Shown piece by piece: positions 2,021 through 53,262 of a DNA stretch of 64,000 nucleotides (positions are counted from its first letter, which is position 1; every line of letters starts with the position of its first letter). Source of the stretch: Podarcis gaigeae (taxonomy: Eukaryota); NCBI GenBank assembly GCA_964106915.2, contig OZ066917.1; one strand, given 5' to 3'. The notes beneath the pieces were generated by a model. It made no database searches and was not told the origin of the DNA. It worked only from the letters and a program-made list of their open reading frames with translations. The position numbers and the translations under genes are program-made.

Positions 2021-5000
2021 CTGAAGAGACAGGCAATAATGAGGGACTCTGCTGCTGCAGGCGATTGTACAATGCCTGCTCATGTGATTTGACTGGCGAA
2101 GAGTCACAGTCTGAAGGAGCCTCTGGTCGCTTCCAGATTCTCCTCATTAACTATGACCTGTCAAAATCATTACTGGATTCCACACCCCACCCATCCATCC
2201 TTAATAATTCATTGAAAATCCATTTTCCTTTCTCTCTCTTTTTAAAAGTGTAGTAGTGTTGGCCTCTAGATTTATACCATCTAAAAGTTTTAAGATCAAA
2301 ATCCTGAAAGAATCTGAGGAGCCCTCACAGATTTGTCCTGGAGTAAAGTGGATTGAGCACTGCAGAACAATACAATGTGTTTTAAAGTAAACAGAAAGGG
2401 CTTGGAAGGGCCACTACATAAGACAACAAGCTAAGCGTTTAAAGTGGCTGATATTAGCCAAACCTGAAATATTAGTGGGACAACTGGGTTGGAAGAAAGA
2501 TACCTTCTCCTCAGCACTTTCGAGATCAGTGACATCATCTCCTGTCAGGGATGACCTCCTTCTCCTCTCCTGCAGTGCCAAATGTTTTGTTTTACACTGA
2601 CGTTTCCCTGGTGGCTTCTCACAGTCGCCATGTTTCTGCAGCAGGGATGCAGCTTGGAAATCTTCTTCCTCGTCTGTGCACAGCACATCTGTCTTCCAGT
2701 TTTCTTTCATTTTCTGCTGCTTGGCAGCCAACCTTGAAACTGGAGTACAGCTTGGCTGGGCTTGCCTTTTGCTGTTTATATTGGTAGATGAAAGGGTCTT
2801 CATGTGCGGAGATGCTGGGAATGGAGGGATACCTAAATGGGGAGTAAAGGCATCGTACATTGCATAGTGTGTTGAAAGGAAAGAGAATACACACACACAC
2901 ACACCCCAATACATGACACATTATTTTAAAACTTTTACATTCACATTAAGCAATTCCACATTTGGACTATAAGCAATAAAAAGTAATTGTAATGGGCGGG
3001 TACATCTGCTAAGCAAAGTTTGATGTTCCGAGATCTAAGCACAGTAAACAACCACACAGTCTAGCACTGCACCATCTAAGCATCGTGGCAAAGGAGATAT
3101 GAATCAGGCCTCCTTCTCAGGGTACTTGTTTATATGGATGCAGATGAGAGAAGAGGCTTCCTTACCTGTAATGACATGCTAGCAAAGTGGGAATATACTG
3201 CTCTTTCAGGTATAGAACTGCTGAAACCTTTCCACCTCAGGAAACCCATTTTTGCTTTTTGTAGAGCAGAGTGGAGTATAAAATTCAAAGGACACAGAAA
3301 CGGTTTCCATAATCAGAAACGCTGGTTGAGTGCCCAATTCCCATTTCTGCATTTGAAAAAGTCTCCCTTTGTGCACCAAAAATGAGGAAAGCATTGGGTC
3401 TGTTTCTTGCAGCATTCTGAAAAGGGATTCATGGATCCAAACAGCAATTTCTCAGTGTTGTGTGGCTCTTAACCATTAAGCAGCTGTCTCTCCTGTTTGC
3501 TGCATTGCAAGGACCTAACTTTCAAGAGTTGCCTTTTGCAAGGATGTCATGTACACAATCCAATCAGAAACAGGATATATTGACCCTAAGTGAACTTTTC
3601 AGCTTCTCTAAAATACCAACAATGCATTTCTCATAGCTTCAATGTTCATTCCACTTTTGTAACATTCTACTGACCATGCCTGAAGAGAGAAAAGGATTCC
3701 CTAAGACATGAAGGAAATGTAAAGAAAGCAAAGAGGTTCATGATGAGTTTGTTTACATGACAATTTTCAGGTAAGAGGAATCAGAACTAAACTTCTACAG
3801 AACCAAAAAAAGGACCAACAGAACAACTGGGATGAATAAAAATGAATGACTAACTGTGGTTTTAGAGTAAGAGCAGTATCTGAATTCACAGTGCATCAGA
3901 TCAAGGTTTCTTAAATTCTGTTTCTGTAAGATCAAGCAATGTATGAATGGAATAGAAACCAAGGGCTTGACTCATGAGTCTGATCTGTCTATCTAATGAA
4001 GGATTCTCTCTCTTGTCTTAAAAAAACTTTTAAAAAAGTGTAAGAAAGTGGTGAATCCTCTAGCTGTTGTAGACTTAGGCCTAGTTTTCACCAGGGTGAA
4101 ACTTGTGGCTGGACTTTTCAGGCAGGAAGTAGGGGCTTGCACTTCAATGTTCCTCTGTTCCAAAAATAAATAAATATCCCCATACCTGGAAAACTAGCAT
4201 GTTGCAAAGAAGGCTCATTTTCCATATGATTGCTTTCCGGGCGCAGGGAATCTTTTTGTATAGGAGAACATTCAACAATTCAGATCTCTGCTCTCAATAG
4301 CAGAATGTTCTCCCATATAAAAACAAAAAAACAAAACTCTGCCTATCACGGTCTGAAATGGTAGAGCCAAACTATGTGTTACATTAAATGCATGATTTTA
4401 TTTAATATGTTTCAGGTTTTGTTTTGATTTTAACACACAGCAGCTGCAATCTGGAGCACAGCACATGGGAAGGGCATTGACCCTTTCCCCCTGCACCATG
4501 GTCCTGATTAAAATCCCTCCCTCCTCCAGCTGCTATTTGCTCTTACAGGGAACCTGCTGTTGGTACCTATAGCAGCTCTGAGGAGTGATATTAGTCAGAA
4601 CAACAGTGCAAGGAGAAAGGGTTAAACAATAATTTAACATAACATATAATTTGACCCTCATAAGCTCTTTCCTAAAGACCTGCTCCCAGTTGGAGATGAA
4701 ATCTTATATTCCAATGTTATAGTAGGTTTCTATAGATTTTTATTGTGTATGACAGCTACATTGCTTGTCGTTATATTTAAATTGTCATTTTATTTCCTGT
4801 GAACTGGTTTTCAGTACAATCTATGTGTAGAAGATGCAGTATAGACAAAACTGACGACGACTAATTAGGAAAGAGAAGAAAGAAGTGGTAAAGCAGGCTA
4901 GGTAGAAGAACTCAGCTAGTCTGCATTTAACCACAAAGCGGAAAAGACACCTGTGCACCTTTTCTGGTATAAAGAGAATGGAACACAAGGAGACCACTTT

Positions 5001-8000
5001 CTTCCCTCCAGCTTTCCAGAGCAGGAAAAAATTAACTCAGAAGTTCAAACCTAATGGAGCAGTGAATTCCCACAAGTGGTTAAAAGACGCAGTACTCTTC
5101 ATACTGTCTTCCTTAATCTACACTCATTCATACGTGTCAAAAATTGTTATGAAATCAAAATCATTCCTGACTGGTAAAGATGAAGGGGGACTGTTATGAA
5201 GTCAAAAACTGTTAAGAATATCAAAAAGCAAAAATGACCAAAAAGAACCTACAGACAAAAATATTTTAGGTTTTTGGTATTCTCTCCCCCCCCCCACCCC
5301 CAATTTGAAGCGGGGAGGGAATCACACGACACAGACAGCACACACATCTAGGATGTGGCATTAAAACACAATTAGCACCACACACTACAGATTTGGCAAA
5401 ACAAGCATAAGTGGTTTAATAGTGGCACTTTAAGTCCTTTATATGATCATAGTAAAATTTTATATTATATATATAATATAATATAAAACTTCTACCCAAA
5501 AAACTACCGACAGCTTCTTAGCACTGGTGGCAGCATGCGTCACTAAGTAATGCTAGATTTCCCTAGTAATCTCTGCATACCTTGTTCATTGTCACTTGTT
5601 TTGAGGGACTCTTCAGACCAACTTCTATTGCTTTTGACCTCTGACCTTTTCTTGGTGTGCCTTTCTTCTGTGCAGTCTTTGACCTTTGCAGTGGCCTCTG
5701 GCTGAACAGCCTCAGCTAAATCTTTCCTGCTTTGCCGGCCCAACTTGCCGGGTGGGGATCTCTCTGGTGACACCTGCTGCTCCCACAGTTCCCTAAGATG
5801 CTGCAGGTGACGCTGCTTTTTGGGATGGAGCCCTGTTAATTCAATGCACACCTTCAGGTTGGTCACCTCATTACAATTGGGCTCTTCTAAGTGGTTAGAG
5901 GAATTGTTTGTCATTTCCCTCTCAGGCCAGTCATCTAATGGAAAAATAACTAAAAATTAATCAAAAGGCCCTCAACTTGAAACAAAAGCTATAGTTCACT
6001 TGTGGGGCAGATTGTTTCAGCTTCACCACCACACTATGCATTTTTAAAAGATTAGCTCAGGAGGGGTTTGCATGCACTACAGCAATTTGCATTGGCCAAA
6101 GATTACGTTGTCCAATGACTATTCTTGTACCTTGTAGGTACCCAAACATAATTCAGGCGAGGATTTGGGATTGGCACAACACAGGTCATAAATGGACATA
6201 GGTTAATCCAAAGAGTGTTCACTTCACAAGCCATGCCTTAAAGAGTGACCAACTTGGCCGGGTTACCTTTGGAGTTCTTCCTCTTTTTTGCTTTTGATGC
6301 AAATTCATCTTCCTGTTCCTCTACAAAGTTTTCTTTAAGGCTTCCATCGTTCTGCATTTTCTCACCAGAATGTTTACGCTTCCTGTCCTGGTGGGGGCAC
6401 AGGGCCTGGTTGACATCTTCTGCAGACTGGTCGCTGGCCTTTTCATATACGGTAAGTCTCTCCACACAACTGTCTGCTGGAGGACCTTTCTCCTCAGGAA
6501 CTTCAAAACCGTGGTCCTGGGTGCTCTCTGTATTGTGAAAATCACCTTCATTTAAAACAAAACAAAAAGGGTTACACATCACTAACTCAACGAGCATCTC
6601 ACGCAATTGCTTCCATCTCTTCAGAGCAATTGTAGCACCAAGTGCGTGCTTGTAAAGAGAATTTACAAAGTAGATGAAAAGGTTTAGACACAACTATGGA
6701 TTTTGGTAAGGATGAATATTATTACATCAAGGACCAATAGGAAAACTAGACATACACTAATATTGCTGGTATTTCACTAGGAAAAGAAGGTATGGTGCAA
6801 AATATTGATTTTCTCATGATGCAAAATAACCAGTTGTCATGAATTAATTCTAGCGGCTCCAAGTCAAATTTGCAAACCCAGGGAATGACAGACTACAGAG
6901 TGTGACAATACACCATAACCTGAACTGCTGGAAACACTTATTGCAGGGATGGGAAACCCTTTTCTGTTGAGAGTCACGTTCCCTAGAGAGTAATTAATCA
7001 GGGGCCACATACTGAGGGCCAGAGTGAAAAGTGAGAAGGGCCAATCCGATTTGCTCACACTCTCTGCTTCCCGCCCCTGCAACCTGCATGAAATTAGACT
7101 GACGCTGAAGGTGGCCCTCTCTGACCTATGACACCACCAGTATCCACGTATTCGGGGATTTAGTAGTGCAGTTAACATATTGCAATGCCACTCGTCTTCA
7201 AAAAATCTACAACTTTCTTCCTTTTTTGCAGCAGGCCTTGAAAACCTGGCTGACATTTTGTATCCTCAAGGTTATGCTTAACCTTAGTCAAGGATATATA
7301 CAATATAACAAAAACCACAGTCTTCAACCAACAGACAAACATTTCTGAACTAGACCTAAATAAATCAAAGTTGTATATCAACAATGCATAAGAAGGATCC
7401 CACGCCTTGAACCTGAAATTTTTAAAATTTTTAAACTTTTTTTCCCCCCTGTGCAATCCTGTTAAAGCTTCTTTGCCCTTCCCACATTATCTTTCTCTGT
7501 AGATAAGGACTTTTTTAAAGGATGCAGCCGGAGCCCTCTTCTCATGTATCTGCCTCTGGTCTCCTTTGTTCCCACCCTCCCGCACATTCCTCCTCTAATT
7601 TATCCCATCAATCTTATCACCCGCTTAACTTCCTCCTCTTCCATTTTGCTGCCTGCCTTATCTTCTCCTTCCATCAGCCCCATCTTAAAAGTTTGCCTGA
7701 CACCTGCTACTTCAAAAAGCAGACTGAAATGAGTTTTGAAACCCAGCAAAGGAAGATTATAAAACAGTGAGGGTTAAACTGAGCCAATTTACAGGAGCAG
7801 CTCCTTTACATTGAAACTTGATGATGTCAAAAGCACAAGAATCTGCACAATATTTAGTGTTGTTGCTATTATTGTGAGTTAGATTTACATGCAGATAAAA
7901 CTGACAGCAGATTAATAGGACTAGGTTACCCTCCTATCATAATATTTTTAGTTACATTGAAACAAGTTTTGCCTGGGACTGGTTTACAGGAAGGGTTCAA

Positions 8001-17000: not shown

Positions 17001-20000
17001 GATTTGTCCTTCCCTTCCTTCCTCACACCATTAGTTTCTTGGGCTCCAGCTGCCTTTCAAAAAGACAGCTCTTCCCTTCACCCTACTGCTTGATGAGGAT
17101 GTGTATGAATTGCCCCTCCGCCCACTGTATCAGCTGGGGGAATAGACAGACTGCAACTGCTTTCCTTTTAACTGAACAGCACTTTTGAGTTTTCAGGGCT
17201 CATGGGGAGTGCACTGAAGCACAAGCATTTACTGAAACTGAAGGAAGCCACAAAAAGGAGGAGGAGGAGCAGCAAGCAGAATGGGGCATCAGGTCTCCAG
17301 GTTCAGAAGGAAGCCTAGGATGCCTTCTTCAACTACCTGGACTCTGCTGAGCATAGCTGAGAAGAGAAGACTCTCTTCAAGAGTCTTAGCCTAGCCAAGT
17401 GCTCCCCAACCTTGTTCTGTGCTGGATTAACAGTGTTTATCAAATATAGGCAACAACTGGTTTACACAGGGGTTACGTTCCTGCCTGCCCCCTTTCCCCA
17501 GGCACTTTCAGGTCACTGCAATGCGAGGTTGCACATCAATTGGAAGCACGCAAATCATTGCCTGTAGATCTGGATTTTATAGATGAATATATGAATTTGT
17601 GGCCAACCCATTATGAGATAGCAACTTGTAATTAACATCTCTTATTGACTCAGTTTACCAGCCATGGCAGACCAGCCCCCACAAAGTTACACACACTCTA
17701 AAGAACACCCATTTTTTTTTAGCAAGTTTGTGGGAAGGGAGAAGTAATAGGTTATCACATCTGAAGAGGTTTGGATACACTGAGGCGACAAACCCTCCAA
17801 TCTTTTTGTTCATTGCACACTTACTGCTGCTGAAATCACTAGAAATTAGCAGGCACTTCTTCCATTCTAATGGTGGGAAGAATACAGCCCAAATCAAGAA
17901 CAAACAACCCCCAATTTTAAAAGATAATGGGCAGCTGTTGGGGCACTAGATTGGCTCCACTAGTATGACCAGGCTGCGTTGGCGTCACCACTGCCCAGCT
18001 CCCACATCACCCTGGTAAGCAGCAAGCAGCAGTGCTGGCAGGAGTTCAGAACCACGGTGCTGCCACACCAGCTGGCCCTGTTGATTCATGGCATAGTTTT
18101 ATTCTTTACTGGTCTGATGGAAGTTGACAAGCCTATGAATGGAAATTTTGTGCACAGAACAGTTTGCTGATATGGAGGGAGAGGGCAGGCTTCTACTACA
18201 CAATACAGATCACCACATTGCAGTGGCTTTCTGCAAAAAAAAGCAACAACACACACACACAATGTTAATGTTCACACTCTTCAAATAACTAAATGGAAGG
18301 TTTTCTGATTATATGACTTAACTCAACCCTCCCATTACCTGTCTTCCTTTCTCCCTGCTTAAGACAACAGAGAACCCACACTAAGACCGACGCAACTTTT
18401 AAGCTACACAAACGACGAGCTGCAGTTGACAAATGTTTACATGAAAGAAACTTGTTTTCACTTCTTGTCAAGGGAAACTTAGTGGGCGATATGCAACATT
18501 AGTCATATTCAGAAAAGACCCACTGACATCTACTGTTATCAAATGGTCTACTCTATGACTAATGTTGTATATCACCCAGTAGGTATTGCTATGACTGTGC
18601 AGCAGCTTTTTGGAGCTGAATGCTTTAACATCTACGTACAGTGGTACCTCGGATTAAGTACTTAATTCGTTCCGGAGGTCCGTTCTTAACCTGAAACTGT
18701 TCTTAACCTGAAGCACCACTTTAGCTAATGGAGCCTCCTCCTGCTGCCGCACCGCCGCCAAAGTGTTCTGTTCTCATCCTGAAGCAAAGTTCTTAACCCG
18801 AGGTAATATTTCTGGGTTAGCGGAGCCTGTAACCTGAAGCGTACGTAACCCGAGGTACCACTGTAATGGCATCGCCATGTTTTGCTCTAAATGACTACAG
18901 GAGGCACACAGAAATTTCAAAAAGGCATATAAAACTTTGCTTACATCTGTCATTGTCATTTTGCCCGGCAATGGCATCTTCCAAAGTGACAGACTTAGGT
19001 TTCTTTTCATTATTTCCTTTCAAGTTTTCCCAGTCTGCTTGGTTGAATCTGCAGACCTCCGGGTCTTTGGTTGCTACGTGTCCTTCTCTCTCTTTCATCT
19101 CCAACTCTGAGAAGCGCATCATTGCACGCTAGAAAGAGAATTGATATGGGGGAAAAAGACACCTCACAATAAGAGCTACTTCATTTACCTTACCTTCTAT
19201 GAAAAGTATTTCCAAAAGAAAATATCTGCTCAAACCCAAAGTTTTGAGATACACACAATTCTATATAAAGTTTTAAAATGCCATATGTTCAATATGCAAG
19301 GCATGTAGTATCTATACACAAATAATATATAAAAGTAAATAACATTTTATTTATTTATTTAAGTGTATTAAAAAGCATTGTCTTTTGAGAGGTATAACAA
19401 AGAAACAAAACATAAACTGTACAATGAATAAAGACGACCATGGCCCACAACTTCCCTTTGTGTACTTGGAAATGAAATTTTAACTCANNNNNNNNNNNNN
19501 NNNNNNNNNNNNNNNNNNNNNNNNNNNNNNNNNNNNNNNNNNNNNNNNNNNNNNNNNNNNNNNNNNNNNNNNNNNNNNNNNNNNNNNNNNNNNNNNNNNN
19601 NNNNNNNNNNNNNNNNNNNNNNNNNNNNNNNNNNNTCATCCATTTTTATAAGCATCAACTAATTCTTTCTTTTTTTAACAACGCAAAACAATTTGGCTTA
19701 ACTCATTCTTTCACAAATCTAAAAAATAACCTACAATACTTGCCATCATTCAACGTCAAATTCACTACAGCTTCTATTCCTTTAAGCTACATTTCTGCTT
19801 GGTAAAGAAGTTGCATTAAACCCGCTAACAAATGGCTGCTACTCCTTTTTAATCAAATGTCCTGTATGAAATAATCATCAAAACTTCTGCCTTTCCTTTG
19901 GTATTTAATAGTGCTAGCCAAACACAGGCAAGCTATAGCAAACTACCTTTAAAAACAAACATGTCATGCATTCTTCAGCTTCCTTTCACTACTACATGTT

Positions 20001-23000
20001 ATGCTTATGAGATTAAATTATTTGTTACACCAATTAACTACATATAATTCTTATCTATTAACGCTCCAATACCCCTGGCTTCATAGCAGAACCTGAATAT
20101 ACACAAGATTACCACTGCTAGTTAAGTTCAAGATAGACTTATAGAGTTGTACATATTTCATTCTCAACTGTGAACTGTGTTTTTTTAAAAAACTGCTTTG
20201 GTAGTTAAGCCTCAGAACTCACCTGCAGAGCCCGCTGTTCTCGACTAAGTTGGCTAGAATCTGCATACAGTTCTGTCGTAACACACTTGAATCGATCACC
20301 TACGTAACCAGCAGAGTTTGCGATTCTCTTTGCCAGGTTAGATGGCTTAGGTTTCAGGAATTTGCCGTCATTAGGTTCCGCGCCCTCAGTTCCCTCTTTG
20401 GCATATGCCTGACTGACTTCCATACTTGACTGCGTGTTTCCCATACAAAGCTGTTTAGCATCATCTGGCATTTTGCAAAAGGACATAGCTAGGCCATCGT
20501 TTCCGTGAGCAGCCTCCAAGAACACCGAGGAAGTGGGAACCGTTAACCTCTCTCTATTCTGGCTCAAGGAAAGGTCCTCTTTCCTTAAGTTGAACATTGA
20601 TGGGTGTGGGCTCTGGGCTTGCTTGAAGTTATAAACTTCATGGAAATTGCTTCTCCCACAGTCTTCCCTCATCACAATGAAATCTCTGTGGGGGAAGCCT
20701 TGTTCTACCTTGTGCTTTGTGGGGTCGCTTGCTTGATTACTGCTTTCAACAGGAAAGCTAGGTTTCGTCAGGTTCGTTTCACCTTTCACATCTTGCTCCT
20801 CTCTCGGTTCTGCAAACAGATGCTTGTCACTTTTGGTAGTATTTTTACCATGACTTGAACTTTGGTGCAATTTTGCATTTCTGTCTGCAGGTACTTCAAA
20901 ATGTAGTTTTGTGCTGGTTTCCAGCATCTCGGGCAATCGGTTTCTCAAGGCAGGGTCTTCATAACGGAGCCGTTCATGCGATCTAGACCTCCTTTCCGAT
21001 TTCTCATCTTTCAGCTCCAAAGCTGTATGGGGTAACAGCATTGGGTGTACCATACCCATACCCAAAGCATCCTGGTAGGTCATGAACTCACCTCTGCTGG
21101 CTGGCAGGCTGTATGGAATGGTAGGTTTGGGAGCTAGATGTCCAGGGAAAAGACTCCCATTGGGTAACAGAACAGGGTGAGGATATACAGGTCCTTTCCC
21201 ATGTAGAGACAAAGGGCCTATAGCTAAGCCTTCTGGAACTGGATATGGGAGATAGCTTCTCGGATAGGGCAATGGTGGAGATCGGAATGCATCATTCGAA
21301 GGGAAAAATATGGAAGTTGGTGCAAGGGTGTTCTCATTTGCTTTGAAGATAGGTTCTGGATTATTGCATTTAGCTGCCTTATTACTATGCTTTGAAGACG
21401 CTGCTGCTAAAGGTTGTCCTATGTGCTGTATGACAGATGCAGTGGTCTCTACTGAGCTAGTCGTCTTAGGGCAATCAACATTGGCATTTGGAGCAGGAGA
21501 AGCAGATGCTGGGCGACCTCCGCTTGATACAGACCCTGAAATATTACTGACAACTGCTTCTGTACCCCCCATCCTAGGGCAAGAAGAACTCCGCTGTTGT
21601 GGCGTCACCCAGTCCAATGCTTTGTTTTTCAACTGCATGTTTTTACCACCGTTATCTTCATTGGGACCTGGACCAGGAACAACCCAGGAGGAAGGCGCCG
21701 TGCTGATTATTTCAGGTCTATAGACAGGGCAACCGCTTCCAGGAGAAATGGTTTCTTTTGGAAGATCACCTCCAGGTAAAACCAAGCCACTTCCGGCCCT
21801 GCTATGAACCAGCACAGTTGGCGCCATTTTCTTAACGTGATCAGATTTGGTTGTCTCCATGTCAACAACTTTTGATGACAAATCCAATGGTTTGTCTATA
21901 ATCTCTTTGGTAACAGTTTGTTGTTTTTCTAACAGTGGAGGGGATCTGCTGTCCTTCCTGTCGTGACCTGTTTTCCTTGCATGCACTGTAGGCTGCTGAG
22001 AGATTTCGCCTGTGTCGTGTGTTTTAGGAGCTTTCCCCCCAGAGACTCTTGGAGGAAACTCATTGCTTACATTCACGTATGGCTTTGGGAGTGTAACTGA
22101 AGAAGGTGACGTCGAAATCCTGGAAAAGTGTTTCTGAAACTCCGAGTAAGCGTCCCCAACCTGCGTCGGGAGGTGAACTCTAGGTGATGGTCTCGGTGAA
22201 TGAGACAAGAGAACAGTGGGGTCTGTTGGCATATTACTAGCCGCTGGCTTTGCAGATGGGACTCTGGGAGGCTTGCTATTCTGGATATGTGGATAGGCAT
22301 GAGAGTCCACAGGAGTTCCGGGACCGACTCCCATCTTCCAAGACAAGCTCTTTTCTGGACAGTGTCCTAGAGGGGGAATAGCTGGAGCTGCGGTTGCAGC
22401 AGAGATCCTCATTGGTGAAGCTAATGATGACGGAATGTGGGGAGCAACGTAATGAGAAGGTGGCAAGTATAAAAAACGTTCACCATTTGTACATACGGGC
22501 GAGTAGGTCAGATGCTGTGGCAAGCTGTAATTGGACTGCTGAGGTAGCAAGGCCTTATACATGTTCAACGAATACTTATTTGGTGATTCGAGAAAAGGAT
22601 AAATAGCACCCTCCATGTAAGGATTTACCCAGGGTAGCCTTAGGTAACTAGCACCATTGACATTGAGAGGACTCGGTTTGTCGCTTGAGCTTCTGTCCAA
22701 GCCTAAGGTCTCCCCAGTTGGAAGCGAACTTTTTTGTATTCCAGGTGGCGTTTTGTACATAGCACTGAAGCCATTTGGGGGTTTTCCAGCTGCATTTTCA
22801 ATTGCTTCAGTGGGATTAGACTTGAACTGCATCTCTGGATTTCTTTCAGGAGCAAATCCAAGGCCAGCAATAGCACTTGTAGCGTCCCGGGGCTTGTCTG
22901 AGCCAAGTCCACATAAACTGGAATAGACAATACTGCTGGGGACTCTAAGCCCTTCCCGCATAAGTCCAGACCGGTCCATGCTCAGAGCTGCAAGGCTGTC

Positions 23001-26000
23001 AATGCGATGCACTGCCGTGGCATCCACCTTTGTGAAATAAGAGAGAGGTGACTTTGGCATTTAGTCAAGTACTATTCAAGGCTACAGGTACTTAAAAAAA
23101 CAACATTGCAGGAAACAAAAGGAAGCAAATACATTGTTTTCATTGTGAAAAACTAATGTGGGCTGATTAAACTGATAAATGTAGAGGAATAAAGTAAATC
23201 AAATTTTAAAATTTTAGCCTGCTTCATTCTTCTGTCTGTGGAGTCTGAGTCCTGCCAAGTTTGATTATTATTTTTTAAGTAAGATTAGTTTAATGGGTCT
23301 CTAGATCCTTTCATACTTAGCAAAACATCTACATGGATTTTAGGATAATATCCTTAAATCTTTGCTACTCAACCAACTGTCCCATTTAAAAAAATTGATT
23401 TCCAGAACCATGTGTGTACTCGCTTCCAACAAGGGACATTTCATAAGGTATGCTTCCAGTGGGGGGGACGACCCTCAGATGCAAAGTTATTTATATTCCA
23501 AAAATCATTTAATTCAAATAATGACACTGAGTCTTTTTTTTTACTTCTGTTCCTCTGCTTATTGATAGCCAAAATAAGTGATATTTAGGCTGCAATCCTA
23601 TATATACTTACCTGGAAGAAAGTCCCACTGAACTCAATGGGGCTGACTTCCAAGTAGACACATATAGCATTGTGCGTTAATAACTTTCACAGGCCAGCAG
23701 AGGAGCTAAACTACTGCCTTTCCCAGCATCCTCATATGAACAAAGAGGAGCTTGCGGGAAAAGAGAAAGCAAGATCGCGTCATGTAGCTGTATTACAGGA
23801 GACCTCTGGGTATAGGGTGGTGTATAAGTTGGAAGAAGAAGAAGAAGAAGGGGGAGGAGGAGGAAGAAGAAGAAACAAAAACACTGGTCTCTCCTCTGTT
23901 CCAAATGTTTGCTCCTACACAAGATGAGAGAAAGTAGGCTACCCAATTCTAAGAAGCAAAACACACTACTGTACAGTGAAAGCAGGCAAAGGCCTTGCCT
24001 CCACAGTCCTTCTAAGCCCCAAGAAAAAACAGCAGCCCTGGGCAGTGCTTTTTCCCGGGGGTACTCAGGGGTACGCAGCCCCAACACCCTTTTTTTCTAG
24101 AATAAAAGCATTGGCCCTGGGGCACTTTCTCTCCAATCTCATTCCTAAACACCCAGCCAGCCCTAAACTGCAGATTGTACTAGTTCTAGTTCTTCCAATT
24201 TTCTTATATTTATATCCCACCATTCTTTCAAGAAGCCTGTGACATCTTTAGGATCATCTTTAGGTGGTTCCTCTCTAGACACTGAAACTATAGCAAAGGC
24301 TCACACACCCCATTCTGTCCACCCAAGGCTACCAGCTGTCAGTCACTGAAATTCTTAAACGGCTAACTGAAATATGCCAAGCAATGTTATTTAGAGCAAT
24401 CATGACTTAAGAGTGTTCATGATGTGCTATTGAGCATATGACGAAGTAAAAAAAATGCTTAAGACTCAGATACTAGAAATATATACAAAAGGATGCAACC
24501 GTAACCCGATATTTGAATGCCACCTCTGGTTTAACAGCAACTTTCATTAGTCCCAAATAGTTATTTGAAATGGAAGCCATAGCACAAAAATCCAGTGAAA
24601 ACCCTTTTGTCATCAAAGGGAACTATCAGTTTCTTACCACACTGTGGTTCAGGTGATTTTCTTCCCTTAATTCCAACCTGCTTTTCGAAGCATCTCCATC
24701 ATTTACTGGGATTTTCCTATTTTCAAGAGATATTTTTAAAAAGTGACTTACAGACACAATGTTAATGGTTTGACATTTTGATCTTGACTGCAGTGTTTCT
24801 ATTAAATTACCTTTATCAATACATCAGTGCAGAAGAAAATTAACAGATTTGCCCTCTAATTGGGCTTTTTCTCTTCTCTATAGAGTTCAGGGATGAAAAA
24901 ATGTTTTTGGACTTTAGTTCCAGTTAAGGAGTTTTGCTAAAGCAATACATGGTAGTAAATACTCTTTCTTTCTTTCTTTATTTAGAAACAAACGACCTTG
25001 TATAGTATCGTTTATATACAGATATACACACACACACACATATATATACAGAGACAGGAAAAACCCACACACTTCTAATATCATACAAATGTCAGCTGTT
25101 CAGTGCTGAAGAAGGAACCATACATCTGTGTGTTAGCAGCGTAGCAGCTCAGGGACTTGTTATCACAGAAAACACAGATAAAAGAATGCACCTCAGTGCC
25201 AACTTTCAAATCCCAGGGACACAATTGCTGACATACAGCAGAAGGGAAGTTTCATCATTACCCAGAAGGATATTTAAAGTGGTGGCACTATCAATTTTTA
25301 AAGTAAAAGCAACACCCACATTTTTGCCCTGTTTCCAGCTATTATTGTTACAACCCACACCTACTAGAAAAGCCACAGGATGCAATTGGATAGAAACAGA
25401 ACAATAGCATTTTGCTCATGTGCACCTCCTTCCTTTGACATTTGATAACAATATACACAGCCATGGCATTCCCCCTCAGTGTCTCGGAACTCATAATTTT
25501 CGCGTGCTGTTTTCAAACAATCAGAGAAAGTTATTAAATGACCCAATACTGTCCTGATTTTATTTTCTATAGGGTGCAAGTCTGACCAAAAGTACTTGCA
25601 AACACAGTGTGCTTGCTTCATTTTAATAATTAGAAGTAAAGAATTATAGTATTGTCCACTATTTTGTAAAGTCTCTTTAAAAAACTGTGTTTGGTATGCT
25701 TTTACAAGGCCCCAATCCAGAGAAAGTTAGCCCTGCTTCAGTCTCGTTGCAGCGAATGTGGCTTAGATTAATCATGACTAACTTGCCCCATTCATTTCAA
25801 TGAAGAATGACGAATGGTTTCTGAACTGGGGCCAAACTCTGACCTTTGTGCTAGTTTACGGAAAGTTATAGAAATATCTAATTGCTGGGCAAATTATCTT
25901 AAGTTGCAGGCCACATAATGTGGACCAATTGAAATTAAAAACCTGAATCCATGTTGTTCTTGTCTTTTTCACAAATAAAAATAATAAACTAAAAATAATA

Positions 26001-48800: not shown

Positions 48801-50800
48801 GAAACTGTAACAGCCTAACCCCACGCAAGATTACCCGCCGGAAGCAAAACGCACGGGAGTCCTTAAATGGGCCTTTTCCCCACGTTAACTGCGCGTGGGG
48901 TCGCAAACGTAGACCGCAAGACTTCTATGGAAATAAGTCCCATTTAACTTACTTCCGAGTAACCACGTATTGGATTGGGCTGCCGCCGCGGCAAAGGATT
49001 GTTTGTGCCTTCGCCGCCACAGAAAAGCAGGGAACTTGCTCCACTGCAAGCCGAAACCCCAGGCGACATCTCGCCCCAACCAAGGCAAACCAGTAAGCTC
49101 GAGGGAACTTACTTCCGAGGGAGAAGGCATAGGATCGGCCTGCGCGGGTCTTTGGATCTGGGGCTCTGCCTGTGTTCGAGACAGCGGGAGGCGCAGACTC
49201 CAGCCCTAGCTACTAAAGGTTAAAAGTCAAAACAAAAAAATTCCTTCCAGTAGCACCTTAAAGACCAACTAAGTCAGAAGAAGTGTGCATGCACACGAAA
49301 GCTCATACCAAGAACTGACTTAGTTGGTCTTTAAGGTGCTACTGGAAGGAATTTTTTTGTTTTGACTATGGCAGACCAACACGGCTACCTATCTGTAAAG
49401 GTTAAAAGGTTTCGCTAGCGCAGCTCCTTGTCTCCGACAGACGAGCCGCTGCCTCCGCAGCACCCAACTTCCGAGCCAAATTCTCCCGGGCGAGCGATTC
49501 CAAGCATCCGCATCTTTGTAGCCCTGCTGTGGTCAGTTACAACCGGTGCCTCAGCCGAGCTGGCAATTTATTTGCTTGCCGCTGTACAAAGTGGGGGGGG
49601 GGCGGGTGGAGAGAGGAGGGAGAAAGAGAAAACCATTGCTAACAAAATAATGTCAGCAAAGGCTGCAACACATTCTTGCGAGAGAGCAGCGCTTCGTGCC
49701 TACCGAGGCTCTTTCAGCACAAAGGCTTTTAGAGAGGAAGACGGGAGGGGGCGGGGGAGGGAGAGGAGGGAGCGAGAGCGCTCTCGTATTTCAGGGCTGT
49801 TGTCCCCCTGGGAACCAAGAACCAAGTGTAGCTTCAATCAAATGCTGACTTCTCCTTCGGGAACTCAGCAGGAAACCTGATCTCACAAGTTTATGCCTGC
49901 CTCCATCTACACGGGCTGGGCTCCCCCCACGCCCCCATCCGCCTTCCCTTTCATACCAGCAATTTGTATATAGAGACGAGATCCAATATTCCTGATTGAA
50001 AAGGAGATGAGGCGGGAGGGCGGGGAAATCAGGTCGGGGACTCTCCGTTCTTGCCAAAAGCAAAACAGCCTCGAAATATCCACGCAGGGCAGCCTCGCGT
50101 CGCATCCACCGGGGCGAAGCCGTTGTTCCAAGCTCGCAAGCCGTCTCCTCCTCCCACCCGTATTCTTTATGCTCTTGATTACACGTACAAGGAATCTCCG
50201 GCGCGTAAGGCTGCAGCCCTTTTGGGTAGACTTCCTTGGGAAGAAGTCCCACTGAACTTAGTGGGGCTTACCTCCAAGGAAATGTGCCTGAGAGCGGACC
50301 TTTGGATGTTTGCTTCCGCACCCAGATCGTCGTTACTCAGCAGTAAGCAAGGATGCTCAGCCGATGGTACCGGCTTCCTGGCCATTATTAGGAGAGCTGC
50401 ATCACAGCCCGAGGACCCCCTGCAGGATTTAGGCGCGCTCAACTGTTTGTAGGATCGGGCTCTTTGGTCAGGTATACGAAGCCACTGGAAACATATTTAC
50501 GGTTCGCTTCGTTTCGACCCGAGACCAGATTAGCCGAACCACTTGGTTTCACGGATCCGGTGATCGGCGTAATAGTTTAAGCTCTGTCTAGAATGGGAGC
50601 CCAGGCGTGGGTCAGGTGGGACGCGCCCAAACAGCAACCTTGTGGCGAGAAACAATGCTCTCAGGAAGGCCACTGTCCACCCGGGCCACCCCATCTCCTC
50701 CTCCTCTCCAATCAATGATCAGGAAGGATTCTTGATGGGGAACTGCAGCTTCTTGTGCAAGACCAACTGCGAGTGTGGTTTACACAACCCGCCCGGCCAA
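45880..50800. promoter_or_regulatory. Second CpG-rich domain (upstream regulatory region or alternative promoter)
   Basis: CpG-dense, with GC boxes at ~46705-46725 and ~46928-46940. Confidence 0.6.
49226..49396. mobile_element. Penelope-like fold-back element with truncated hammerhead
   Basis: Same sequence as 52626-52864 in the opposite orientation; inverted arms; flanking duplication taaaggttaaaag (49214-49226, 49396-49408). Confidence 0.8.
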
Positions 50801-52723
50801 GAAGCAGGCAGGAGGAAAGGGAGATGACAGGAACCGAGACTCAGTGGGGAGGAAGGCGTACCAGTCACTTCCTGCTCTGAGGTTCCTTAACTGGGGGGAG
50901 GGGGCGTTTCAGCCACTCCTCTCTCTCTTTTTTACAACTCTGCTTGGCTTCTGCTTGTAAAGGGTTCCTGAAACTAACAACCCATGGTTCAAGTAACATC
51001 TCAGCTTGTTCAGAGCACAGGGGACAAAAGAACTCTCCCCTGGCCTACCCAAGATAGCGGATACCACAACAAACATATCAGCCTGAAAGCACCACCAAAC
51101 CCTTTGCTTATTTTTTTGTTAAACCAGAGTAGAGTCCTTATGCATGTCTACTAGAAAGTAAGCAAAATACTTACTCTTCAGAAAGTGAATATGATTATTG
51201 CCAAATACGCCTTTTTCACCACCCCCATACTGTATATTTTTCCCCCCAAGTGCTCCCCTTCTCTTTAATGTTGCACTTATTTAGCAAACCCGGAATTTGT
51301 TTAATTGCTTTCTTTTGGCCTCCCCCAGCAACTTGCTCCTTTTGAAAATGCTGTACGCACTCAAAATTATGCACACTCTCCAATCTATCACTATGTCAGG
51401 AAAGGCCTTGCAGAGGTGGCATAGAACTACTGAGCAAACATAGCTCATGGATTGCAACCACACATCTTATTTTGGGTTTGGGGTTTCCTTCAAGGAAGCC
51501 AGTCATCCTCCTGATAAGAATTTGCCTATGCCAATTATAATGTGCAAATGGGTAACCTGAAACTGCATGTGTATTCATAAGTGAGTCTCAATGAGTTCAC
51601 TGGCACTTACTCCAAAGTAAGTATAGTATTCATCGTATTGCAGCCATTACCATGTTGCCCAAGCCACAGTAAATCCAGAATCACTTGATTCATTGATTGA
51701 TTGCTTTGAACTCAGTGTACCTAGAAGTACATGCATTAAGCTCTGTTGCCACAGTGCACACCCTGATAACTGAATCCTGATCTACAGGTTAAAGTTCACG
51801 TTATGGAAGATGCCAGCATGGTTAAAGAGCAGTGTAAACAAAGGTATAAAAAGGTAAGAAGGTTCCCCTATTCCAAAATGAAAGTCTTGTCCTAATTAGG
51901 TGGTGAGAATTAAAAACACACAAGTTATGGCAAAACCAATGTGCTGGGTAAAAGAAGCCAGCACAGCAATTGAGAAGCAAAATTCTAAGTGCATATAACA
52001 ACTAACATTTATTAAAATAATATACGGCTTTATAAGGCTTTGGGCTGGGTGTCCACCAGTATGCAGATGATACCCAGCTCTACCTCTCCTTCAAATCAGA
52101 ACCAGTGAGGGCAGTGAAGGTCTTGTGTGAGTTGCTGAGGCGGTTGGCGGGTGGATGGCAGCTAACAGATTGATGCTGAATCCTGACAAGACAGAAGTTA
52201 TGGGGCACAGGGGGCAGGTGGGTGTGGGGGACTCCCTGGTCCTGAACAGGGTAACTGTGCCTCTGAAAGAACAGGTGTGCAGCCTGGGAGTCATTTTGGA
52301 CTCACAGCTGTCCATGGAGGCACAGGTCAATTCTGTGTCCAGGGCAGCTGTTTATCAGCTCCATCTGGTACGCAGGCTGAGACCCTACCTGCCTGCAGAC
52401 TGTCTCACTAGAGTGGTGCATGCTCTAGTTATCTCCTGCTTGGATTATTGCAATGCACTCTACATGGTCACCGAGAAACTACAACTAATCCAGAATGTGG
52501 CAGCTAGACTGGTGACTGGGAATGGACACCAGGACCATATAACACCGGTCCTAAAGGATCTTTACTGGCTCCCAGTACGTTTCTGAGCACAATTCAAAGT
52601 GTTGGTGCAGACCTTTAAAGCCCTAGTTACAGATAGGTAGCCGTGTTGGTCTGCCATAGTCAAAACAAAACAAAAAATAAATCCTTCCAGTAGCACCTTA
52701 AAGACCAACTAAGTCAGTTTTTG

Positions 52724-52761
52724 GTATGAGCTTTCGTGTGCATGCACACTTCTTCAGATAC
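52724..52761 (-). ncRNA. Minimal type I hammerhead ribozyme motif, inverted copy
   Basis: Exact reverse complement of 52775-52812. Confidence 0.78.
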
Positions 52762-52773
52762 ACTTCAGATACA

Positions 52774-52813
52774 GGTATCTGAAGAAGTGTGCATGCACAC
52801 GAAAGCTCATACC
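52774..52813 (+). ncRNA. Minimal type I hammerhead ribozyme motif
   Basis: GGUAU-CUGAAGA-A-GUGUGCAUGCACAC-GAAA-GC-UC-AUACC: stem I, CUGANGA core, stem II hairpin, GAAA, UH site after 52808, palindromic AGCU in place of stem III. Confidence 0.8.
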
Positions 52814-53223
52814 AAGAACTGACTTAGTTGGTCTTTAAGGTGCTACTGGAAGGAATTTTTTTTTCTTTAAAGCCCTAAACGGCCTTGGCCCGGTATACCT
52901 GAAGGAGCATCTCTGCCCCCATCACTCAGCCCAGATACTGAAGTCCTCCTCTGAGGGTCTTCTGCTGGTTCCCTCACTGCAAGTAGCGAAATTACAGGGA
53001 ACCAGGCAGAGGGCCTTCTCAGTAATGGGGCCCTCAGTAGTGGTTCCCTCCCTATGGAACACCTTCCCTTCAGATGTCAGTGAAACAAACAACTATCTGA
53101 CTTTTAGAATACATCTGAAGGCAGCCCTGTTTAGGGAAGTTTTAAAGGATGTTTTTATTATGTTTTTAGATATGTTGTAAACCGCCCAGAGTGGCTGGGG
53201 AAACCCAGCCAGATGGTAGGGTG

Positions 53224-53224
<1 letters not shown>

Positions 53225-53262
<38 letters not shown>
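53225..53262. repeat. (TAT)n microsatellite at the L2 3' end
   Basis: Read directly. Confidence 0.95.

What the first reader, a model, noticed from the sequence alone, without database searches (positions are those of the whole stretch)
52613..52877. Compact fold-back retroelement with hammerhead ribozyme motifs on both strands
Seen: a 239-bp insert with a perfect 13-bp duplication and ~80-bp inverted arms, each with a full minimal type I hammerhead core (52724-52761 minus, 52774-52813 plus). Established: Penelope-like elements carry minimal hammerheads lacking a stable stem III that are thought to cleave as dimers, and they often insert with inverted terminal repeats. Inference: a young, non-coding, ribozyme-bearing family is active in this genome. 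Transcription in either direction would include a hammerhead, although the long hairpin may sequester it. The class is known; this family and its activity may not be described.
Basis: partly seen in the sequence, partly recalled or inferred. Interest (0 to 1): 0.7.

Follow-up and report, generated by a model that had tools for sequence, protein, structure and literature searches.

The report
Twin-primed Penelope retrotransposon stub
This small DNA hairpin is one of thousands of stubs left by a young, protein-coding Penelope-type jumping gene, and the stubs' ends suggest that its enzyme likely cuts both DNA strands and copies the front of one RNA twice, once from each cut, a testable explanation for this class's puzzling inverted ends.

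Summary
In detail: 13-bp duplication, 94-nt inverted arms, and a minimal hammerhead (HHR) core in each arm. The reading of a non-coding ribozyme family does not. The insert is the front end of an autonomous Penelope-like element (PLE; 910-aa RT + GIY-YIG ORF, L043) and carries its first ten codons. An exact 31-mer occurs 15,119 times in the genome. In a position-ordered sample of 76 insertions, 42 are head-to-head with one tailed and one tail-less arm, 1 has two tail-less arms and 0 have two tailed arms. Junctions differed in 40 of 40, so the hairpin is not a spreading unit. Paired arms share a subfamily marker (82 of 84), mostly stop about 100 nt before the ATG, and sit in symmetric C-N12/13-G targets (41 of 85, control mean 6). 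Best reading (inferred): two nicks prime two cDNAs at the element's two internal start sites, both run off the RNA 5' end and are joined. Both HHRs are predicted buried in the hairpin. Inverted ends with a one-sided tail are published; I did not find these rules in print. This scan has noted similar stubs in at least 35 genomes.

The parts
52611..52612 (+). AC just outside the TSD; left half of the family's symmetric AC-N12/13-GT target signature (the right side here reads AA, no match)
   Evidence: sequence; family statistics
52613..52625 (+). Target-site duplication, left copy (13 nt; the last base may be microhomology with the tail end)
   Evidence: empty sites in other copies of the host repeat
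52626..52660 (-). PLE tail; holds the ATG (52657) and first ten codons of the element's ORF; the outer end is the downstream RT start site (about +31)
   Evidence: L043 ORF starts here; tail-end distribution
52626..52764 (-). Long (tailed) arm: element positions +31 to -100 relative to the ATG
52724..52761 (-). Minimal type I hammerhead motif, 4-bp stem I; predicted cut between 52728 and 52727
52765..52774 (+). Junction filler: 9 nt re-copied from element positions -90 to -98, plus one non-templated G (52774)
   Evidence: sequence
52775..52864 (+). Short (tail-less) arm: element position -97 to the T-run just before the ATG (upstream RT start site)
52774..52813 (+). Minimal type I hammerhead motif, 5-bp stem I; predicted cut after C52808; predicted sequestered in the fold-back
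52865..52877 (+). Target-site duplication, right copy
52040..53262 (+). Host: decayed LINE RT remnant with a YADD motif and (TAT)n end, interrupted by the insert (L2-type is a recalled label; bounds approximate)
   Evidence: translation; tandem repeat; no Pfam hit for the 151-aa piece
49214..49408 (.). Second stub of the same family: tail-less arm on minus (to -53), tailed arm on plus (from -94), 13-nt TSD; only one HHR

Best explanation
The insert is a truncated copy of the front end of a young autonomous Penelope-like retrotransposon, likely made when the element's enzyme nicked both DNA strands 12-13 bases apart and each nick primed a cDNA on the same RNA, one from the tail end and one about 35 nt upstream, both likely running off the RNA's 5' end before being joined head to head. 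Shown: identity with the pLTR/ORF start of a full-length element; one tailed plus one tail-less arm; shared subfamily marker between arms; independent junctions; 12-13-nt TSDs; two-fold symmetric target; pile-up of arm ends near -100. Inferred: nicks 5' of G(T) on each strand leave 3' overhangs; a protein dimer does the work (by analogy with PMC11167929); -100/-97 is the transcription start (TATA at -130, initiator-like CA at -100); priming at the first pLTR-ORF junction of a transcript gives such stubs, while priming at a later junction of a tandem read-through gives long copies; joining uses microhomology, template jumps or host repair. The HHR is carried along because it begins at the RNA's first bases. 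In the stub it is predicted silent, and it decays neutrally.
For: Full-length partner L043: 910-aa ORF, RVT_1 E 9.5e-12 and GIY-YIG E 7.8e-6, both above cut-off; its two pLTRs differ at 1 of 310 nt; the window arms differ from it at 2 and 1 substitutions outside T-run length. Position-ordered sample (101 exact 31-mer hits on contig C1, 76 insertions): tailed+tail-less 42 (40 automatic, 2 regrouped by hand), tail-less+tail-less 1, tailed+tailed 0; p = 5e-12 against 50:50. The single exception is a complex insertion holding a copy of a neighbour. The other 33 are 26 single-armed or tandem and 7 with a partial second arm. Marker at -51 agrees between arms in 82 of 84 pairs (94 pairs, 10 not covering it; permutation mean 41.9; unbiased set 33 of 35), while the CpG at -71 decays arm by arm (11 of 74 discordant, none shared), so this is not later gene conversion. 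The tail-less arm reaches further 5' in 24 of 42, the tailed arm in 8, within 3 nt in 10; snap-back from either arm cannot give this. Five tailed arms stop at -2 to -29, at the other start site. Furthest 5' end lies at -114 to -91 in 44 of 76; 53 of 70 core-bearing arms end at -105 to -93. TSD 12-13 nt in 57 of 85. C-N12/13-G in 41 of 85 (control mean 6.1, maximum 12); AC-N12/13-GT in 18 of 85 (control mean 0.5); unbiased subset 18 of 36 against 2.9. PMC11167929 showed in vitro for an anole PLE that both strands are cut and extended and that two internal RT starts bracket the tail.
Against: No 5' end of the RNA was mapped. The non-templated G before -97 (31 of 41 informative arms pooled, 9 of 13 unbiased, against 6 of 39 at other ends) fits a copied cap, but in this very insert and in L127 the partner arm reaches -100 and -105. 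The G may therefore come from a one-base snap-back onto the stem I mirror, or the arms may come from two RNAs of one source; some of these G are parts of re-copied fragments. The marker cannot tell one RNA molecule from two of the same locus. PMC11167929 saw no difference in start-site use between strands, did not test pairing of starts within one event, and found an ATT cut preference in a different clade. 28 of 76 clusters were classed single-armed or tandem by the automatic pass (26 after regrouping), so twin priming is not the only outcome. The sample is the first 5.3 Mb of one contig, about twice the genome-wide density, and needs an exact 31-mer.
Confidence: 0.75

Rival explanations
1. 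Self-priming or snap-back: one strand (an antisense RNA, as proposed in PMC3846280, or the first cDNA) folds back at a palindrome and is copied, giving the inverted arm; the endonuclease then trims one end to remove the tail.
For: Several junctions fall in palindromes (stem II near -85, AGCT near -66). Same-source arms are expected here too. The extra G can be read as a one-base snap-back.
Against: A copy cannot reach beyond its template, yet the tail-less arm is longer at the 5' side in 24 of 42 (up to -970 against -2) and a tail-less template cannot supply a tail. Both end types also occur on single-armed copies. Many junctions carry filler, not a perfect turn.
Confidence: 0.1
2. Twin priming as above, but on two separate RNA molecules from one source locus, one per protomer.
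For: The -51 marker cannot separate this from one RNA. Partner arms sometimes imply different 5' ends (-97+G against -100 or -105). T-run letters differ between arms (-17 site 64 of 88, chance 61.9).
Against: It does not by itself explain why each event uses one start of each kind (42:1:0), why tailed arms stop at the other start site in 5 of 42, or the 24:8 lead of the upstream-primed arm (p = 0.007).
Confidence: 0.1
3. One reading: a self-propagating non-autonomous, ribozyme-bearing fold-back family (retrozyme- or MITE-like) whose HHRs act in its own cycle.
For: One complex insertion (L121) holds a 340-bp, 97%-identical copy of the fold-back L122 with flank, so a stub may occasionally be recopied. 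Fold-back junctions occur in RNA reads of a related organism.
Against: 40 of 40 junctions distinct; this junction unique among 40 scored; both HHRs whole in only 13 of 42; the TATA box is absent from the stub; HHRs predicted sequestered; core decays like flanks.
Confidence: 0.05

Closest known systems
EN+ PLE insertion unit with inverted pLTR, one-sided 30-40-bp tail and TSD (PMC8557442 passages and Fig. 2 legend; Pen2a_Av in PMC3846280 passages; Penelope of D. virilis, PMC2377424 passages)
   Same: Head-to-head inverted copy, tail at one end only, TSD, tail overlapping the first codons, TATA and initiator-like motifs in the pLTR.
   Different: Here the unit is reduced to the two ends alone (59 of 76 insertions are 300 bp or less), and the end-pairing rule, arm identity and symmetric target are counted. 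PMC3846280 explains inverted ends by self-priming, which these data contradict.
Poseidon_Ac (PAc) of Anolis carolinensis, in vitro (PMC11167929, parts 1-2 of 4 read plus passages)
   Same: RT + C-terminal GIY-YIG; two internal RT starts bracket the tail; both strands cut and extended; HHR at the pLTR-ORF junction.
   Different: Different clade by the CX4CX2C linker. HHR lies 60-97 nt upstream of the ATG rather than overlapping it. Target signature AC-N12/13-GT rather than ATT. The parts and passages I read do not treat inverted copies or TSDs.
Minimal type I hammerheads of metazoan PLEs (PMC4209133, parts 1-2 of 4 read)
   Same: Short stem I, extra base between 9 and 10.1, G10.1-C11.1 pair, palindromic stem III remnant; opposite-strand pairs 100-700 bp apart are already mentioned, as are reptile motifs.
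   Different: The pair here is only about 13 nt apart and is explained as a by-product of insertion; activity untested.
Non-LTR retrozymes (bioRxiv 10.64898/2026.07.22.740005, parts 1-2 of 5 plus passages)
   Same: Short, HHR-bearing, PLE-pLTR-derived sequences in vertebrates.
   Different: Retrozymes are direct tandem repeats with two or more HHRs on one strand; this is an inverted pair with a TSD.
Twin priming of LINE-1 (recalled, not from a call)
   Same: Two target nicks prime two cDNAs on one RNA, giving an inversion.
   Different: In L1 the second primer lands at a variable internal site and the two pieces do not overlap. Here both starts are fixed and both cDNAs copy the same stretch.

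Membership tests
EN+ Penelope-like element (source element L043) | Single ORF with RT and C-terminal GIY-YIG endonuclease | tested here: met
   910 aa; RVT_1 at 438-586 and GIY-YIG at 808-856, both above cut-off
EN+ Penelope-like element (source element L043) | RT closest to telomerase RT | tested here: met
   AlphaFold2 model, mean pLDDT 87.4; Foldseek ranks 1-3 are TERT chains, though group II intron and retron RTs follow within about 20-fold in E-value; no tree built
EN+ Penelope-like element (source element L043) | Pseudo-LTRs from a partial tandem | tested here: met
   two direct copies 3010 nt apart, 309 of 310 nt identical
EN+ Penelope-like element | HHR motif inside the pLTR | tested here: met
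EN+ Penelope-like element | 30-40-bp tail at one end; inverted 5'-truncated copy; TSD | tested here: met
Neptune clade | CX2-5CxxC linker between RT and EN, with EN C-terminal (PMC8557442) | tested here: met
   CX4CX2C near residue 770, read from the translation; closest named proteins are turtle elements at 61-69% identity
Neptune clade | Phylogenetic placement against Nematis and Poseidon references | not tested
   no labelled reference sequences were available
Minimal type I hammerhead | Core CUGANGA / GAAA / UH, extra base after A9, G10.1-C11.1, palindromic 15.2-16.2 | tested here: met
   sequence; isolated 40-mers fold into stems I and II (z -1.75 and -0.86, not strong alone)
Minimal type I hammerhead | Motif kept while flanks change between subfamilies | tested here: inconclusive
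   12 arms of older type: recurrent changes at 8 flank positions between -58 and -17, and inside -97..-59 only at position 17, which tolerates change; small sample, no stem covariation seen
Minimal type I hammerhead | Self-cleavage (as dimer or protein-assisted) | not testable with these tools
   indirect only: 2 of 34 arm ends at -64..-62, 7 of 34 at -68..-62 where a palindrome confounds; no pile-up of read starts
Rfam hammerhead families | Match to an Rfam hammerhead model | tested here: not met
   0 of 35 matches at E <= 10 are hammerheads
Non-LTR retrozyme | Two or more direct tandem units, each with an HHR | tested here: not met
   arms are inverted; no tandem array here
Self-propagating non-autonomous family (MITE/SINE-like) | Copies share one internal structure | tested here: not met
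   40 of 40 junctions distinct in the unbiased set; no identical junction among 39 other scored loci

The most novel reading that the evidence does not exclude
Double priming is the normal integration mode of Penelope-like elements. An RT-EN dimer makes a symmetric staggered cut (5' of GT on each strand, 12-13-nt 3' overhangs), one protomer is fixed on each of the two internal start sites of one RNA, and both target ends are captured by cDNAs. Because the start sites lie only 100-130 nt from the capped 5' end, most events run off at the hammerhead and seed the genome with thousands of ~90-bp hairpins. This would replace the self-priming account of inverted pLTRs and give the first target-site rule for a Neptune-type endonuclease.
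Probability: 0.55. Interest if true: 0.72.

Novelty: new member of a known kind. Interest (0 to 1): 0.5.

Why it matters
How Penelope-like elements, the closest mobile relatives of telomerase, build their inverted ends and one-sided tail is still open; PMC8557442 and PMC11167929 both say the later steps await experiment. This family is young, has intact ORFs and about 11,000 copies (rough extrapolation), so its insertions record the reaction with little noise. They give three predictions that an existing in vitro assay could test: one start site per strand within an event, a symmetric 12-13-nt staggered cut, and run-off at a defined RNA 5' end. About 6,000 perfect hairpins (same extrapolation) could also feed double-stranded-RNA pathways when read through by host genes; this is untested. 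The single locus itself is ordinary and probably inert.

Tried and rejected
Rfam scan: only miRNA-hairpin look-alikes below their thresholds. An apparent A/G asymmetry between arms at -56 (11 of 16 pairs in the loci) was a selection artefact of the query's private variant; it is absent in the unbiased set (0 of 33). Spliced template: no recurring upstream exon in junction fillers, and ends sit at -97 or -99 rather than at the AG acceptor-like -98; not supported, not excluded. Pile-up of ends at the HHR cut: 5 of 12 furthest ends at -68..-62 against 2 expected (p = 0.036, post hoc, palindrome confound), only 2 arms end exactly at -63; inconclusive. RNA: no listed holder is on record as RNA. Four raw RNA runs of coded organism B (2 studies, 6-12% of each run read) show both orientations and 88-91% of reads running on into unlike sequence, i.e. 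read-through of genomic copies; they do not map a start or a cut. Laying public contigs on the locus gave no result, so presence in relatives is unknown. Homodimer prediction of residues 12-222: no verdict (0.30 and 0.21, mark 0.32). No PDB sequence relative at E <= 0.01. Earlier-findings look-ups by sequence and by place gave nothing relevant. Literature searches found no paper stating the end-pairing rule or the symmetric target. The library lacks most subscription papers, Repbase and Dfam were not searchable, and I read no supplements (Fig. S2 of PMC11167929 and the reptile motifs of PMC4209133 may bear on this).

Full report
Observation. The insert lies between two identical 13-mers (52613-52625, 52865-52877), with 94-nt inverted arms at 96% complementarity and a minimal hammerhead core in each arm. 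It interrupts a decayed LINE RT remnant. In 22 of 25 flank pairings from other copies of that repeat the 13-mer is single, which makes it a true TSD. The left arm carries about 40 nt that the right arm lacks. Rfam does not recognise the hammerheads (0 of 35 matches), as expected for minimal motifs.

The source element. Of 30 close loci, four continue upstream into pLTR sequence and two of these into a GIY-YIG reading frame. That protein piece had 5,538 candidates in the genome; the 150 scored were 95-100% identical. L043 is full length: a 910-aa ORF with RVT_1 and GIY-YIG, a CX4CX2C linker, and two pLTRs differing at 1 of 310 nt. Its predicted fold ranks telomerase chains first; its closest named relatives are turtle proteins at 61-69% identity. 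Neptune clade is assigned from the linker described in PMC8557442, not from a tree. The ATG lies inside the extra 40 nt, so the window insert is the element's front end with ten codons. Positions below count from that A: TATA -130, HHR core -93 to -64, cut between -64 and -63, tail-less end near -4, tail end near +31.

Abundance and sample. An exact 31-mer occurs 15,119 times, the reversed control 0 times; an HHR descriptor occurs 13,199 times against 2. I fetched the loci of the first 100 listed hits on contig C1 (101 anchors, 76 insertions). This set is ordered by position, not similarity, but comes from 5.3 Mb at about twice the average density and needs the exact 31-mer. Loci were chosen by similarity and are pooled only where stated. 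Rough extrapolation: 11,000 insertions, 6,000 fold-backs, 1,900 with both HHRs whole.

Rule 1: one arm from each start site. Head-to-head insertions with two complete outer ends were tailed+tail-less in 42 (40 automatic, 2 regrouped by hand because a neighbouring fragment joined the cluster), tail-less+tail-less in 1, and tailed+tailed in 0 (p = 5e-12). The one exception is half of a complex insertion that holds a copy of a neighbouring stub. The remaining 33 are 26 single-armed or tandem, with both end types, and 7 with a partial second arm; several of these hide a very short arm from the other site. The selected sets agree: 19, 7 and 26 tailed+tail-less, one tail-less pair at a locus edge, no tailed pair. 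PMC11167929 showed in vitro that a PLE protein extends both target strands and starts at two internal sites that bracket the tail.

Rule 2: same source, made separately. The family is split about evenly at -51; paired arms agree in 82 of 84 (permutation mean 41.9). The CpG guanine at -71 has decayed in one arm only in 11 of 74 pairs and never in both, so later homogenisation does not explain the agreement. The tail-less arm reaches further 5' in 24 of 42, the tailed arm in 8, and 10 are level. A fold-back copy cannot outrun its template, and a tail-less template cannot supply a tail, so the self-priming account of PMC3846280 fails for at least those 24. Five tailed arms stop at -2 to -29, where the other cDNA starts, as expected if both are on one RNA; this is suggestive only.

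Rule 3: run-off at about -100. The furthest 5' end lies at -114 to -91 in 44 of 76 insertions, short of it in 12 and beyond it in 20; 53 of 70 core-bearing arms end at -105 to -93 (a few counted twice from overlapping loci). A TATA box 30 nt upstream and an initiator-like CA at -100 suggest the transcription start. Arms ending at -97 are preceded by a non-templated G in 31 of 41 informative cases (5 of 46 dropped because the partner abuts; unbiased 9 of 13) against 6 of 39 at other ends. A copied cap is one reading. Against it, partner arms here and in L127 reach -100 and -105, and a one-base snap-back onto the stem I mirror gives the same G. RNA reads of a related organism show loose ends at the same three positions, but come from read-through of genomic copies.

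Rule 4: symmetric target. Among 85 of 92 automatically called fold-backs (dropped: no 9-17-nt repeat, or duplicates) the TSD is 12-13 nt in 57; longer ones often include microhomology. C-N12/13-G occurs in 41 of 85 against a control mean of 6.1, and AC-N12/13-GT in 18 against 0.5. Since both TSD copies are followed inward by antisense cDNA, the geometry implies nicks 5' of G(T) on each strand with 3' overhangs. A dimer is inferred from this symmetry and from the model in PMC11167929.

The ribozymes. The motif matches the minimal HHR of PMC4209133 feature by feature. Alone, or in the element's leader, stem II forms (probability 0.94). In the fold-back the complement is transcribed first on either strand and stem II probability is 0.0; whole-insert energy is -179 kcal/mol. 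Young copies lose core bases as fast as others (17 of 836 against 18 of 1520), while 12 older-type arms differ recurrently in the flank but hardly in the motif. Selection therefore appears to act on the source lineage, not on stubs. Only 13 of 42 fold-backs hold both HHRs. Evidence for cleavage in vivo is inconclusive.

Not a family of its own. Junctions were distinct in 40 of 40 unbiased fold-backs, and none of 39 other scored loci matched this junction fully; two pairs of unrelated selected loci shared a junction string, as expected when ends converge on one point. One insertion carries a 340-bp copy of a neighbouring stub with flank, so rare recopying may occur.

Novelty. Inverted pLTR, one-sided tail, TSD and opposite-strand HHR pairs are published (PMC8557442, PMC3846280, PMC4209133). 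I did not find the four rules in seven searches; supplements, Repbase and Dfam were not seen. My reading was recorded; one search then showed 316 notes of this scan in at least 35 genomes holding the same search words, and the 8 shown describe similar stubs with similar readings. These are not independent support. Verdict: a new member of a known kind, ordinary as a locus, useful as a quantitative record of PLE integration.

Noticed in passing
L121:1504-2103 and L122:1516-1892 (G000:C1, about 20 kb apart): One complex insertion with a 12-nt TSD-like repeat holds a 340-bp, 97%-identical copy of the neighbouring fold-back plus about 165 nt of its flank, starting at the tail-less site. Either a stub transcript was used as template in trans or nearby DNA was captured.
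   Followed up: partly
L091:3049-3212 against window 52613-52877: An independent insertion of the same family at the same 13-mer of another copy of the same LINE repeat, in the opposite orientation; L085 and L134 also landed in that repeat family.
   Followed up: partly
window 49214-49408: Second stub of the family 3.2 kb away, at the edge of a GC-rich region.
   Followed up: yes
window 2414-2920, 6238-6693, 20205-23060 (minus strand): Exons of a BCOR gene (Pfam BCOR E 2.6e-46 for the first; the 951-aa exon is assigned from recall). Both stubs lie 5' of these exons, possibly in a 5' intron, where the hairpin would be transcribed.
   Followed up: partly
L007:1499-1775 and L110:3984-4273: Direct mini-tandems whose first unit ends at +85 to +88, beyond the tail, followed by a unit starting at -97/-99; two HHRs on one strand about 190 nt apart, a retrozyme-like arrangement that could dimerise.
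   Followed up: no
L041:4212-4295 and flanking long ORFs: A near full-length copy (931-aa open frame) nested next to another element with long reading frames; the neighbour was not identified.
   Followed up: no
L024:843-1490: A GC-rich repeat of about 650 bp sits between the two arms of a fold-back, probably a later insertion or a captured template.
   Followed up: no
window 19488-19635: A run of 148 N.
   Followed up: no
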